DNA of 64,000 nt from Eledone cirrhosa (taxonomy: Eukaryota): assembly GCA_964016885.1 (NCBI GenBank), contig OZ024747.1:27528001-27592000 (forward strand), in the 5' to 3' direction. Position numbers and translations under genes: made by a program. Below the pieces are notes generated by a model. It ran no database searches, had not been told where the DNA came from, and saw nothing but the letters and a program-made list of their open reading frames with translations. Positions 17,001-26,000 of this stretch are shown here, piece after piece. Numbering within the stretch: the first letter of the stretch is position 1; each line of letters opens with the position of its first letter.

Positions 17001-20000
17001 AACCTAGAAATAAAGAATTGTAAGGAGAAAATGAATTGCAGGCACTGAATAAAGGAAAGGGTGGTCACAGTTGGAATGTTTTTGATCATATATCTACTGG
17101 ATTAGGGCTGACCTAGAGCTAAGCATAAATGGCACCACCACTAACAACAACAATAACAGTAACTGGCTCAATGAAGGAGAGATCATAATGAGAGTTAAAG
17201 CTGTTGTTAGTCAGTTCTACTGGTGTAAGCCATAGTCTTGGAATTATCTTGAGAAACCATATGGTTAATTTCCTCTTTGTTGAATCGTATGGAAATATTC
17301 AACCTAAAGATATCCAAATTCTTTGTTTTCAATTGTTTATATTTATTTTAAAAAACATCCATCATAATTTTATGTGAAAAACTTGGTTAAGTTAGTTCCA
17401 AAAAACAAGTTCATAATGAGAAAGGTAGTTACTAAATCCATCAAATTTATTTGAAAATTATATGCTGTGTTTTTTCATTAGACATGATAACGAAAGAGTT
17501 AAAGGGTTTATCTTTATCTAAAAACCTTCCATCGTAATTTTATGGAAGAACCTTTGTTATGCTCCAAAAATCAGCTTAATAATGAAAAAAATTAGTTAGT
17601 TAATTAATCACTCTAAATTCTTGATTATTTTCATAATGATTTGAAAATCACAAGCAATGTTTTTCATTAGAAATATGGTAATGAACGGGTTTAAGGAAGT
17701 TGTTTTAACACAACAATCAAATAAAATAGTTGAAAGCATTTCCATTCTCACCTTGGTCTGACCAATTCAATGACATCTTTGACTTTCTTGGCACTCTCTA
17801 TTTTAGGAATGTAGACTTGGGAGAGTTCTTCATGTAAGAGGGAACCAACAAGAGTTGGAATTCTCTCTTCCTTGGAGGAAACAATCACCTCAGATAAGTT
17901 CAACAACTTGCTCACACCTGGTGGAAACAAATAATGAGGAAGAAAAGATGATTTCAAAGATTTTTTTTTATTAGATGACAAAAAAATATATTTGAGAAAC
18001 AAACGGAAAAAGGACGAACAGAAGAAGAAGGTTTCATAACTCACTTCCTAGAGAGTCCCTGTCAAAAGAGAAGACAACTCCAGCATCCTTGAGCAGATAC
18101 AGTCTTGTGCTGTTCATAGCCTGAATAAATTGAAAGTTAAACAAAAATAATGAGGCTGTTTGCTTGCAAATGAATCGAATATTATTATTATTCAATATAA
18201 AACTAATGAATGCATTTACGTATTCACTATGATAGAGTGAAAAACGAAATCCTAATTTTGATTTTTAATTTTCGGCAAAGCCAGCTGTAAAATTGCTTGG
18301 TAAGCAAATTAGGCTAACAAGCCGATGTATACTATATATAGAATACTATATATTCTCAAGTGTTTTAATGAGTGACAGAAGGGAGATACACAATCTTGAC
18401 AAAGGGCAATAACCCAGAAACAATATTATTGTCGATTGTTTCTCTCTGTCACTGCTAGAACAAAAGGATGGGAATGGTCATCTAAAACACATAGTATTAT
18501 GAAGCTGTTTGCTTGCAAACAAATCAAATATTATTATTATTCGATATAGGCGGTGGATTGGCAGTATTGGTAGAGTGTTGGATGCCATGCTTTGGCGCAT
18601 AGAGTTACGGCCCTTGCCATTCTGAGTTCAAATCCCGCCGAGGTTAACTTTGCCTTTCATCCTTACGGGGTCGATAAAATAAAGTACCAGTAATACACTG
18701 GGTAATTGCTGGCCTTGTGCCTAAAGTAGAAACAATTATTATTCGATATAAAACCCATGAATGCATTTACGTATTTGCTATTTTAGAGCAAAAAACGAAA
18801 TTTTAATTTTGTTTTTAAACAAGAATTCATTTAGGAAAAATATAAATAAACAAAAATAAACCAAAAAATAACTTCTAATATCAATTAATTTCTTTAACAA
18901 CCTCAACCATAAGGCTTAGAAAACCTAATAACTATGTGCCATATTAAGAGACATCATAACAACAAGAGATATTAAGGGATGTCATAACTATAAGCCATAT
19001 GAAGGGATGTCATAACTACAAGCCATATTAAGGGATGTCATAACTATAAGCCATATTAAGGGATGTCATAACTATAAGCCATATTAAGGGATGTCATAAC
19101 TATAAGCCATATCAAGAAACCTTATATGAGCCATATAAGAGAAACCTCATATCAAGCGACCTCTTATATCATAGTTTCCTTAACCCTTTGTGGCCCCTTT
19201 TCAGAGAATATATTTCATAAATATGCCGCCGCCCCCCCCCCCCCCCCTTCCCAAATTGAAAATTAAATTCTAATATTTTTATTTTATTTTATTTAACCTT
19301 TTTGATACCAAACTGCCTGCAACTGTCCCTGATTTTGTGATTCAAGGTTGCTGTTTAAAGTTGTTTATTTCTATCTAAAGTGCCTAACGTAGAAACAATT
19401 ATATATTTATATAAAAACCTTTGTTATGTCCCAAACACCAGCTTGATAATAAGAAAATAAATTATATTACTAAATCCCTCCAACTTCTTGATTATTTTCA
19501 AAATTATTTGAAAATCGTAGGTTTCATTAGAAATATGCTAATGAAAGGTTCAAGTATTTATAGAATAACTATGAGTAACAATTAATTTGTATCCTTTGCT
19601 TCTTTCCTCCCTCACCAAGGACACTGCCTACTACCCCATATCTTTCTCTGCTCCCTCATCAGTCTCCCAGCACCTCCAAGGGGATAGTAATGCATACTTT
19701 GAGAATGACTGCTTTACATGGTCACTCGACCTGTTAGAAACAGCAACCCAATCTCTATAAAACAAAAACAAAGATGGATGAAAAAGGCCAACTTACCAGT
19801 TGTAAAGACTTAGTGTTGACATCAGGATAGAGCTAATGAAGAAAGATTGAAATACCAGTCATTAGTTGGTTAATTACAACAACTAGAATATAGTGTATAA
19901 ATACAACACATATATAGAGACAATGCATGACACACATGCACAAATATATATATATATATATATATATATATATTAGGGATGGATTCTCCTCTCTACATTC

Positions 20001-23000: not shown

Positions 23001-26000
23001 CTCCTTCTATCTGGAGTTGCGACCGATAGATAGTATTAGCAATTGGAAAGACCAACGGAAACTTTGTTCCCTCGGTCCGATTTGACGAAAGTCAATCGTT
23101 CCTTAAAAAAAAAATATATATACTTCGTTTTTGAATTTGTTTTGCAAGATTACTTATCTGAAAACGTGTGTTGAAACAGATATTGTTATACTTTGGGAGG
23201 GTCATGCTGCCAATAAAAACACACGCACCTGGTGGTTTCCACTTCAATTTATTATAAATTTCCGGTTGGTTGGTTGGTTCGATAACTGGATGGTTGTTTA
23301 TATATTGTCAAAGCTCTTTCGTCACACATTCTGTGACCTCCTCAGTGACTAGGTTTTTATTGGCAGCATGACCCTCCCAAGGTATAACAATATATATATA
23401 TAACAAATTGAGATGACAGAAAGAAGTTCTTATATATTATTATTAAATATATACAGTATATATATGAGAGAGTATATATGTATGTGTATTATATAAATGT
23501 GTATATATATATATATATATATATATATATATATATATATATATATATATATATATCAAATATGTACAGACATACAGGTATCTATAGATTTATACACACA
23601 CACACATATATATATATACAAATAAAATACAGAGTTACTAACTCATATATACTCATATATATATATATATATATATGAGTATATATGAGTTAGTAACTCT
23701 GTATTTTATTTGTATATATATATATATGTGTGTGTATGTGTGTATAAATCTATAGATACCTGTATGTCTGTACATATTTGATACAATCTTATAGTTACTT
23801 CCTACTTGTGTTTTATATATATATATATATGTGTATGTATGCATGTGTGTTTGTGTGTATGTATGTATATGCATGTAGGCAAGTCACTGTTCAGTGCTAC
23901 TGGTAACATATAACGCAGTACAACCTGTGCTTGCTTGATGAGGTGGGTGATTTCAGACATCCTGTGGGATGAACAACAAAACCCGTCAAAGTGCAGAGCA
24001 ACTCAGGAGAATCAATGGCCATCAAATAAATTTTTTTTTTGTGAAGCAAGAGACTCCTAGTCTTCATTAAAACATCTCTCTAGGAGAAGGTCCCTCTGAT
24101 ATAAAACCTGTGACTTCGTTTGCATCCAATGATGTTGACCAGTTCTACATTTTGGGTAAATTCATTCAATGTTCAGAGAGTGGGATTGGTCCTGTGTAAA
24201 GCCTTTCCTCATTTAAAAAAACTTCAAGCACAGGCACCGCTTGGTATGTGACTTTTTTCTGCAATGTATTACTTGTTATATTTCTCTAAAGGAAATAAAT
24301 CTTTACCAGAGAACCAAACTAAATTAGGAATTTCATCATGGCAACACTTGGAATGCCTAAAGTATCCTAATTTACATATCCTCGAAAACACAACAGAAGT
24401 AATTCTAAAAAATGAAATAAAATAAATATATATATAGAGAGAAAGAGAGATTTTTAAATGTATAACAAATGCTGGTTCTTACTTCATAATCATGGTGGAC
24501 TAATTTTGAAGAAATTCGAGCTCTTACAATTAACTTCCAGCTGTAATTGGCAACTGGAAGGAGTTGGATGTCAAGAGCAATACTCTCTTGGATTGATTCT
24601 GAAACCAGAAGACACATAGGTCATTGGAGTGAGAGATGGCATGTGAGTTGTAGTGGGAGGTGGTATGTGAGTTGTAGTGAGTTATTCTCAGTGTTGTAGA
24701 GAGTGAGAGAGCGGGAGAGAGAGAGAGAGAGAGAGAGTTGTACTTAGTATTGTAGTGAGAAATGGAGTGTGAGTTGTAGTGATATATGGAGTGTGAAGTG
24801 TAGTGAGAGAGGGAGAGTGGCGTATATTGAGAGTTGGTGTATGAGACGTAGTGAGGGATGGAGTGTGAGTTGTAGTGAAATGGAGTGTAATGTGTAGTGA
24901 TATATGGAGTGTGAGGTGTAGTGAGATGGAGTGTGAGGTGTAGTGATATATGGAATGTGAGTTGTAGTGAGAGATGGAAAGTGGAGTGTAGTAAGAGAAG
25001 AAAGGTGAGCTGTATGAGATACAGATTGTGAGGTGTAATGAGAGAAATAGAACTTACCCAAATGTTTTGAGATGTGGAGGGGGTACAATACTCTCTCTTT
25101 GATTAATCGGTAGATATCCATTACACCTTTCTGACTCTCAAAGCAGGGTGAGGCTTCAACTGGCCAGACAACAAGAGCTTTGCGGGCCTTCAGGGTCCTT
25201 TAGAATAACACAGAAGAAAGAATAGGGCGCAATTAATCACAACATAAAACATAAAACATTGGATATTGTAGAAATACTGAATATAAGACAGAGTGGTCAT
25301 GGCTGGAAAGTGTTTAATCATAGGTCTGCTTGATCAGAGCTGATCTCAGGTTACTCAACAACAATGATAATATAATATATAAATGATATGATGTTAGAAT
25401 TTGATTTCATCATAATTCTATGTAAGCACCTTTGTTATATTATGTTCCAAACACTAGCTTAATGATAAAAAGGTTATGTTACTAAATCCTTTCAAATTCT
25501 TGATTATTTTTTAAATGATTTGAAAATCATAAGCAGTGTCTTTCATTATAAGTACGGTAATGGAAGAGTTAATCCTTCACCTTAATCCTTTAGTATTTAC
25601 ATTACTCTATATGTACTATTGTATTGTTGCCGTAACCTCACAATATTATCACATAATATTAAATCTATGTTTTGATATTATATATTTTAAGAACAATACC
25701 TTAACATCGGCATAACTGGCCGGTTACAGCTAGTTTGAAGAGAAAGAGGTGAGAGAATTCAGGCTAGATACAGCTGGTTTAAATGCTAAAGGGTTAAATA
25801 ATGACTGCCACTTTTTATCATCACGCAACAATATACATATGTTGAAATACTTACCAATATCTGATGGGTCTGTATTCAGACTCTGCCAACTGTTTGATGT
25901 AGGTGTGAACCCATTTAGCAACATAGCAGTCTGGTTCATAACGGATGGAAGAAACCAAGAGTTGCCAGATATTGTCATTCAAAGAGTTAACAATCAAAGC

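What the first reader, a model, noticed from the sequence alone, without database searches (positions are those of the whole stretch)
19725..23180. Tandemly duplicated 36-nt coding microexon; each copy's microsatellite was hit by a different retroelement
Seen: block A (about 19725-19970: donor, exon, acceptor, then (TA)n) recurs at 22615-22880, and block B (22555-22613) recurs at about 23121-23180. This gives the arrangement A-(TA)-[Penelope]-B | A'-(TA)-[SINE]-B'. Both exons keep AG/GTAAG sites and phase 0-0, and they encode [12 protein letters not shown] versus [12 protein letters not shown]. Both exon differences are nonsynonymous. Inference: a young exon duplication that could give mutually exclusive or additive splicing in the lipid-binding beta-sheet region, with the copies pushed about 2.9 kb apart by the Penelope insertion.
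Basis: partly seen in the sequence, partly recalled or inferred. Interest (0 to 1): 0.75.

Follow-up and report, generated by a model that had tools for sequence, protein, structure and literature searches.

The report
Duplicated micro-exon in octopus vitellogenin-like gene
A lipid-carrier (vitellogenin-like) gene of an octopus-type animal carries two nearly identical copies of a tiny 12-amino-acid exon, and both are likely spliced in one after the other, as public protein models show for the same segment in another octopus species.

Summary
The duplication is confirmed. A ~335-nt unit holding the 36-nt, phase 0-0 exon 15 of a single-copy, divergent vitellogenin-like gene is doubled head-to-tail: A/A' differ by 3 substitutions and 1 indel, B/B' are identical, and the junction is blunt. 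The two insertions are unremarkable: 9 of 9 other SINE copies and 9 of 9 other Penelope ends sampled also sit in (TA)n, and block B is the end of a third TA-flanked repeat. Whether both inserted after the duplication is unresolved. Steric, frameshift and splice-class causes of mutually exclusive splicing are absent, and two nonsynonymous changes are expected by chance (p 0.37-0.58). New here: Octopus bimaculoides models of the ortholog carry the same 12-residue segment twice (two models) or once (one model); O. sinensis carries it once. The exon matches the conserved 'IVEFGLRAEGLQ' motif of lamprey lipovitellin. Copy 15a is closer to the orthologs; 15b carries Leu-to-Pro. Most likely both copies are included, with 15b a tolerated, drifting loop insert, and the doubling arose separately in two octopod lineages. 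No RNA evidence was obtainable. This is a new member of a known kind, of modest interest.

The parts
24483..24598 (-). Exon 14 of the vitellogenin-like gene; ends in phase 0
   Evidence: tblastn to orthologs; AG/GT chain
22687..22722 (-). Exon 15a, 36 nt, [12 protein letters not shown], residues 729-740; first in the transcript; the more ancestral-like copy
   Evidence: Best-scoring of 2896 open 12-codon windows and of 10 AG-36nt-GT candidates in 18121-24482; BLOSUM 17-23 to the ortholog peptides
19797..19832 (-). Exon 15b, 36 nt, [12 protein letters not shown]; His-to-Tyr and Leu-to-Pro inferred to be derived
   Evidence: BLOSUM 9-15 to the ortholog peptides; Leu at position 3 in all 4 ortholog peptides compared
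18045..18120 (-). Exon 16; starts in phase 0
19725..19943 (.). Block A: 72 nt of downstream intron, exon 15b, about 110 nt of upstream intron with a CTAAT branch-point-like motif at 19865-19861
   Evidence: the branch-point consensus is recalled
19944..19973 (.). (TA)15, left half of the copy-1 microsatellite
19974..22523 (+). 5'-truncated Penelope-like element: GIY-YIG end of the ORF (stop at 20597-20599), long AT-rich 3' region, hammerhead-like motif at 22339-22364; other copies 98-99% identical
   Evidence: Pfam GIY-YIG E 5.7e-4, 20.6 bits, below the 22.6 cut-off; genome searches; other copies run on upstream; fold
22524..22555 (.). (TA)16, right half of the copy-1 microsatellite
22556..22614 (.). 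Block B: duplicated end of a dispersed repeat; blunt junction to A' at 22614/22615 with no microhomology
   Evidence: contigs of two runs of one sample start their fit at 19725 after 26 and 29 unfitted letters (letters not shown, so inferred to be B)
22615..22834 (.). Block A', containing exon 15a
22835..22880 (.). (TA)23 of copy 2
22881..23113 (+). Young SINE, 233 nt, A tail; other copies 97-99% identical, flanked by (TA)n
   Evidence: tRNA-like A/B boxes by eye only (ARAGORN 0 genes; no tRNA hit in Rfam)
23114..23393 (-). Block B' and the rest of an older TA-flanked repeat, with a 41-nt inverted repeat (23180-23220 / 23353-23393) and a hammerhead-like core from 23345; probably a Penelope-type terminal fragment
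7320..43305 (-). Host gene: single-copy vitellogenin-like large lipid transfer protein, ortholog of O. sinensis LOC115215599 and O. bimaculoides LOC106874592; 3' end approximate

Best explanation
A ~335-nt stretch holding the 36-nt exon 15 of an octopod vitellogenin-like gene is duplicated in tandem, and both exon copies are likely spliced in one after the other in many transcripts, which would add 12 residues to the protein. Steps: (1) Shown: the unit is intron-exon-intron-(TA)n plus the end of an older repeat, joined bluntly. (2) Inferred: it arose by DNA break repair or a replication error beside an unstable TA tract. (3) Shown: a Penelope-like element lies in one TA tract and a SINE in the other, and both families favour TA tracts. 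Inferred: they inserted after the duplication. (4) Shown: both copies have the same acceptor and branch-point-like motif and a GTAAGT donor, keep the frame and lie far apart. Inferred: the spliceosome takes both, with some single-copy transcripts. (5) Inferred from alignment to lipovitellin: 15a supplies the conserved beta-strand and helix start, while 15b falls into the length-variable segment that follows, where His-to-Tyr and Leu-to-Pro are tolerated. (6) Shown at protein-model level: O. bimaculoides has the same segment doubled. Inferred: this is a separate event, favoured because exon 15 is the smallest frame-preserving exon of the gene.
For: Identical splice signals and an open frame with both exons. 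The inter-exon intron is 2854 nt, 304 nt without the Penelope, far above the <50-nt donor-to-branch-point limit for steric exclusion (PMC5740500 passages). O. bimaculoides A0A0L8GUI0/XP_014777867.1 and XP_052827332.1 carry IQLELSTEALKQ followed by IQLELSTESLKQ; A0A0L8GVS4 carries only the second; O. sinensis XP_029640679.1 has one copy. Copies match 10/12 and 11/12 within a species, but 2-4/12 between this genome and the two Octopus species. The exon aligns with abalone LEVGVFTEGFEA, tarpon LEFGIRAEGIED and lamprey 1LSH IVEFGLRAEGLQ, and the segment after it varies in length. TA preference: SINE 9 of 9, Penelope right end 9 of 9, B-repeat 5 of 5 other copies inspected. In a rough capture model exon 15 takes 38% of frame-preserving whole-exon duplications of 335 nt in exons 1-20.
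Against: No spliced read or contig covering exon 15 was seen. I could not see O. bimaculoides DNA, so its doubled segment may be an intra-exon 36-nt repeat or a prediction error rather than two exons. The two exonic changes in 15b could have damaged splicing enhancers (not tested). The SINE has 4 private changes in 222 nt (1.8%), at the upper limit of the duplication's per-copy divergence (0.72%, 95% CI 0.20-1.84), so it may predate the duplication. Both AlphaFold models are unreliable at exon 15 (pLDDT about 25-40), so the strand and loop assignment rests on alignment alone, and one of my two MAFFT alignments (A3) put the vitellogenin motif in another register.
Confidence: 0.55

Rival explanations
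1. 15b is a silent or rarely used, decaying pseudo-exon; 15a alone serves as exon 15, and the duplication is a neutral passenger.
For: Both exonic changes are inferred to be derived in 15b, including a Pro at a position that is Leu in all 4 ortholog peptides. 2 of the 3 substitutions fall in the 36-nt exon (p 0.05-0.07 if placed at random). A 2.5-kb element sits about 140 nt upstream of its acceptor.
Against: Its splice signals are identical to those of 15a and typical of this gene's constitutive exons. A doubled form is annotated in O. bimaculoides.
Confidence: 0.25
2. 15a and 15b are mutually exclusive and give two substitution isoforms of the lipid-cavity strand.
For: Same length and phase, two amino-acid differences. 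The MFE fold pairs the (UA)n tracts on either side of 15a around the exon (z -6). A single-copy isoform is annotated in O. bimaculoides.
Against: No steric, frameshift or U2/U12 barrier. The UA duplex is absent from the centroid structure, and similar enclosing pairs are computed for 15b (7.2 against 11.4). A 15b-only protein would likely put a proline in a beta-strand. Known substitution pairs are mostly ancient (PMC9741552, abstract and passages). PMC5740500 notes that many true pairs have no visible mechanism, so this is not excluded.
Confidence: 0.1
3. The tandem is an assembly artefact that placed two alleles (one with the Penelope, one with the SINE) side by side.
For: A/A' divergence of 1.8% could be allelic, and each copy has its own insertion. 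The read sets laid are one sample and may be the assembled one, so they are not independent.
Against: In runs X1 and X3 a short-read contig fits from exactly 19725 after 26 and 29 unfitted letters, as a B|A junction would give. Its depth is 7.54 against 5.3-5.6, and 10.2 against 5.6-7.1, for other exact-match contigs (ratios about 1.4 and 1.65). About 1.54 is expected for two copies per haplotype and 0.77 for alleles. Depths are low and repeat words may inflate them, so this is a weak hint. The junction is blunt and lies in non-overlapping sequence, which is not how overlap errors usually look (inference).
Confidence: 0.05
4. History variant: at least the SINE is older than the duplication. 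Either copy 1 lost it between the TA tracts, or the tandem arose by non-homologous joining of two alleles that already carried different insertions.
For: Private changes: SINE 4 of 222; Penelope 7 of 1109; duplication 4 of 558 per lineage. All 4 differences lie in A and none in B.
Against: The confidence interval of the duplication age includes the SINE value. The Penelope age fits an insertion at or after the duplication. The allele version needs the Pro-bearing exon to have worked as the only copy.
Confidence: 0.3

Closest known systems
O. bimaculoides LOC106874592 isoforms (XP_052827332.1, A0A0L8GUI0 versus A0A0L8GVS4)
   Same: Orthologous gene with the same 12-residue segment present twice or once.
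   Different: Different peptide (2-4/12 identical to ours), with one conservative change between its copies. The single-copy form keeps the second copy, whereas here the first copy is the more ancestral-like. Its exon structure was not seen.
Tandem exon duplication-derived substitutions / mutually exclusive exons (PMC9741552, PMC5740500; passages read)
   Same: Adjacent homologous exons of equal length and phase; repeated independent origin in orthologous genes is documented.
   Different: Those are mostly ancient and spliced either-or. This pair is about 98% identical including introns, with no exclusion mechanism found, and is more likely additive.
Vitellogenin / lipovitellin (1LSH), MTP and apoB: the large lipid transfer protein superfamily
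   Same: N-terminal Vitellogenin_N module (Pfam E 1.8e-21 on the N-terminal 1011 residues of P0001; Foldseek best hit 1LSH, E 7.7e-17; profile match probability 98.5); exon 15 aligns to the E-x-G-L-R-x-E-G-L motif.
   Different: No Pfam VWD or open-beta-sheet hit in the octopod proteins. A long helical-looking exon and a Thr-rich tail follow instead. About 18% identity to vitellogenins.
Microsatellite-targeting EN+ Penelope-like elements (Neptune and Naiad types; PMC8557442 passages)
   Same: C-terminal GIY-YIG preceded by a Cys-rich linker, hammerhead-like motif, insertion in (TA)n without a discernible target-site duplication.
   Different: This copy lacks the RT. I did not place it in a clade by tree; 'Neptune-like' is a lead from the Cys linker.

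Membership tests
Tandemly duplicated exon | Two adjacent homologous exons in one gene, with the same length and phase | tested here: met
Tandemly duplicated exon | Intact splice sites on both copies | tested here: met
   ag|...|GTAAGT, 12 of 15 pyrimidines, identical in both
Tandemly duplicated exon | Both copies found in transcripts | not testable with these tools
   No run on record as RNA; no splice joint displayed
Mutually exclusive exon pair | Never joined in one transcript | not testable with these tools
   No RNA; ortholog models show the joined form
Mutually exclusive exon pair | Steric block (donor to branch point under 50 nt) | tested here: not met
   Intron 2854 nt, 304 nt without the Penelope
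Mutually exclusive exon pair | Frameshift or NMD on joint inclusion, or U2/U12 incompatibility | tested here: not met
   36 nt, open frame with both, both GT-AG with the same donor
Mutually exclusive exon pair | Competing RNA structure | tested here: inconclusive
   UA-tract duplex in the MFE fold but not in the centroid
Large lipid transfer protein superfamily | Vitellogenin_N (N-sheet plus alpha-helical) module | tested here: met
   Tested on the orthologs. Separate exon ORFs of the window and the full-length orthologs gave no such Pfam hit.
Large lipid transfer protein superfamily | Open beta-sheet (PF09172) lipid-cavity region containing exon 15 | tested here: inconclusive
   No Pfam hit; motif aligned in A4 and in the profile search but not in A3; models of low confidence
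Canonical vitellogenin | C-terminal VWD domain | tested here: not met
   No VWD hit in P0001-P0003; present in P0007-P0009
Canonical vitellogenin | Female-specific synthesis and deposition in yolk | not testable with these tools
   No expression data
EN+ Penelope-like element | C-terminal GIY-YIG endonuclease | tested here: inconclusive
   Pfam E 5.7e-4, below the curated cut-off
EN+ Penelope-like element | Hammerhead motif near the 3' end; high copy number; microsatellite target | tested here: met
   Core and stem II seen at 22339-22364 (core consensus recalled; my pattern script missed this one); 1236 and 2726 candidates; 9 of 9 ends in TA
EN+ Penelope-like element | Reverse transcriptase in the same ORF | not tested
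   Absent from this truncated copy; the upstream part of other copies was seen but not classified
tRNA-derived SINE | tRNA-like head with A and B boxes | tested here: inconclusive
   Seen by eye only; ARAGORN and Rfam negative
tRNA-derived SINE | Short, non-coding, high copy number, A tail | tested here: met
Neural (Srrm4-type) microexon | 27 nt or shorter with UGC just upstream of the acceptor (definition recalled) | tested here: not met
   36 nt; no TGC in the 40 nt upstream

The most novel reading that the evidence does not exclude
[quoted passage not shown] Its optional double inclusion makes long and short isoforms that tune lipid loading, so a regulated length switch is being born twice in parallel.
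Probability: 0.12. Interest if true: 0.62.

Novelty: new member of a known kind. Interest (0 to 1): 0.36.

Why it matters
It is a snapshot of the first stage of exon duplication, before any splicing control has evolved, with a natural replicate in O. bimaculoides. One can ask directly whether newborn exon copies start out additive, skipped or exclusive, and whether the redundant copy drifts. It also shows that a TA tract in this genome can collect three different repeats within a few hundred bases of a coding exon. If only 15a is used, it is an ordinary passenger duplication.

Tried and rejected
RNA: no RNA holder was listed. Run X4 (kind unknown) holds half the words of the large 3' exon but had no cover on exons 16-17, and no splice joint appeared among the 15 joints displayed; 2622 more were not shown, because SINE contigs swamped the tables. 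This says nothing about splicing. Run X5 (organism B) had almost no cover on the part of the Penelope that was laid; I draw no conclusion from that. More orthologs: three protein searches found only O. bimaculoides, O. sinensis and Argonauta; the representative search added three distant vitellogenins. The Argonauta models lack the segment, which may be a missed micro-exon, so I treat them as uninformative. Two AlphaFold jobs (one-copy and two-copy orthologs, 7-row alignments) had pLDDT under 50 across exon 15. A direct PDB sequence search with P0002 found nothing meaningful. Rfam gave only TA-driven miRNA hits below threshold. Rejected: a target-site duplication (no element lies at the junction); 3' transduction (no tail or TA target at either junction); microhomology-mediated slippage (0 nt shared); A-to-I editing as the source of the exon differences (they are C/T on the coding strand); an older third copy of exon 15 (none); selection inferred from two nonsynonymous changes (p 0.37-0.58). 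Literature: six accession terms found 0 papers; seven topic searches listed nothing on this gene or exon, judged from listings only. Subscription journals and supplements were not searched. Look-ups in earlier findings by relatives, sequence and words were empty.
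Full report
Observation. The window lies at G000:C7:27528001-27592000 in a 3.0-Gb genome; protein homology marks it as octopod. A (19725-19943) and A' (22615-22834) differ by three substitutions and a 1-nt indel; B and B' are identical over 68 nt including TA. A occurs at exactly two places in the genome search. Without the inserts the two units measure 340 and 334 nt. The B|A' junction at 22614/22615 is blunt: neither flank shares a base with it (read).

Host gene. 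The large exon at 10265-11842 finds three octopod proteins at 54-68% identity, and tblastn with them lays out a minus-strand gene from 43305 to about 7320. Exons 1-19 chain with AG/GT ends and no stop; exon 15 is phase 0-0 at residues 729-740, and all four inclusion patterns stay open. An exon-12 probe finds one place in the genome. The protein belongs to the large lipid transfer superfamily. This was tested on the orthologs: Atlas features 0.97, weak HMMER hits to three vitellogenins, profile match probability 98.5, Pfam Vitellogenin_N E 1.8e-21 on the N-terminal part, Foldseek best hit 1LSH. It lacks a Pfam VWD domain, so I call it vitellogenin-like, not a canonical vitellogenin.

The exon. 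In the 6.4 kb between exons 14 and 16, 15a is the best match to the ortholog peptides among 2896 open windows, and 15a and 15b rank first and second of 10 AG-36-GT candidates. It aligns with the E-x-G-L/V-x-x-E-G motif of abalone, tarpon and lamprey vitellogenins, in the region Pfam calls the open beta-sheet. One of my two MAFFT alignments misplaced this motif, and both AlphaFold models are unreliable there, so the reading 'strand, then helix, then variable loop' is inferred. [quoted passage not shown] 15a scores higher than 15b against every ortholog peptide (17-23 against 9-15), and the Leu that 15b replaces with Pro is kept in all four. Two nonsynonymous changes out of two has probability 0.37-0.58 under neutrality.

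A parallel case. Three O. bimaculoides models were retrieved: two (A0A0L8GUI0/XP_014777867.1 and XP_052827332.1) carry the 12-residue segment twice, and one (A0A0L8GVS4) carries it once. O. sinensis has it once; both Argonauta models lack it. Copies are 10/12 and 11/12 alike within species and 2-4/12 alike between this genome and the Octopus species, and our intron flanks are 98% identical, so the two doublings are most simply independent. I could not see the O. bimaculoides DNA or the evidence behind its models. Recurrence at this exon is not very surprising once a duplication survives: exon 15 is the smallest symmetric exon and takes 20-38% of the weight in a crude capture model.

The insertions. 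The Penelope-like insert (19974-22523) is a truncated copy of a young family (39 of 39 other listed hits 98-99% identical at the left end) with a GIY-YIG remnant just under the Pfam cut-off and a hammerhead-like motif. The SINE (22881-23113) is also young (97-99%). I inspected the best 9 other copies of each, out of 39 listed: all 9 SINEs have TA on both sides, and all 9 Penelope right ends run into TA, one only briefly. B is the end of a third repeat; 5 of 5 other copies inspected start at a TA run, and 3 of them share the window copy's hammerhead-like core. TA targeting by such elements is described in PMC8557442 (passages); 10.64898/2026.07.22.740005 (abstract and outline only) links hammerhead repeats to Penelope termini. 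So two hits in two TA tracts need no special cause. Private changes are 7/1109 for the Penelope, 4/222 for the SINE and 4/558 per lineage for the duplication (CI 0.20-1.84%); the comparison copies were chosen as closest, and the order of events stays open.

Is it real? Contigs from two runs of one sample fit A from exactly 19725 after 26 and 29 unfitted letters, with depth about 1.4 and 1.65 times that of other exact-match contigs, against 1.54 expected for two copies and 0.77 for alleles. The contigs carry 0 and 1 differences from A, so they are probably mosaics of both copies. Depths are low, the loose letters were not shown and the sample may be the assembled one: this is a weak hint against an artefact, not proof.

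How it likely works. Both exons have identical signals. Of the exclusion mechanisms listed in PMC5740500 (passages), steric hindrance, frameshift and splice-class incompatibility are absent, and RNA structure is inconclusive. The default is then that both exons are recognised, as in the O. bimaculoides models. 15a would take the structural position and 15b would lengthen the following segment by 12 residues and drift. I give this 0.55, a silent 15b 0.25, mutual exclusion 0.10 and an artefact 0.05.

Novelty. Tandem exon duplication, and its independent recurrence in orthologs, are known (PMC9741552, passages). I found no paper on this gene in the searches named under Tried and rejected; supplements and subscription journals were not seen and could hold isoform data. 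Earlier AI notes on this genome report other young exon duplications, one of them additive; they are unchecked, but suggest such events are common here. Verdict: a real, new member of a known kind, made more interesting by the parallel case and less so by the ordinary behaviour of the insertions. Interest 0.36.

Noticed in passing
window 7320-11842 (minus strand) and P0001-P0003: In place of a VWD domain the octopod protein has a ~510-residue helical-looking exon and a Thr-rich tail; only octopod relatives were found for that exon among 5.8 billion proteins. A vitellogenin-like protein with an unusual C-terminal half may deserve its own look.
   Followed up: partly
window 14763-14977: A SINE's ATT-rich tail ends just upstream of the exon-19 acceptor and forms most of its pyrimidine tract.
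   Followed up: no
window 23345-23310 (minus strand): A hammerhead-like core of the B-repeat lies in the sense direction of the pre-mRNA, in the intron upstream of exon 15a; 1 such hit in 20 shuffled windows. Its core has one atypical base and its activity is unknown.
   Followed up: partly
window 23554-23783: Near-perfect inverted duplications (70-nt arms with no spacer at 23596-23735; 74-nt arms at 23554-23783) in a TA-rich patch, another sign of local instability of TA tracts.
   Followed up: no
window 19974-20016 and 22517-22523: The Penelope's truncated left end carries short internal duplications and begins with TTAGGG, while its right end reads TAACCCT; both telomere-like words are also in other copies of the element.
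   Followed up: no
window 18928-19116 and 24624-25045: A 28-nt minisatellite (6.8 copies) in the intron after 15b, and a 24-nt degenerate array between exons 13 and 14.
   Followed up: no
P0003 and P0006, around residue 715: Both Argonauta models lack the exon-15 segment and are 9 residues shorter there, which looks like a missed micro-exon in annotation.
   Followed up: partly
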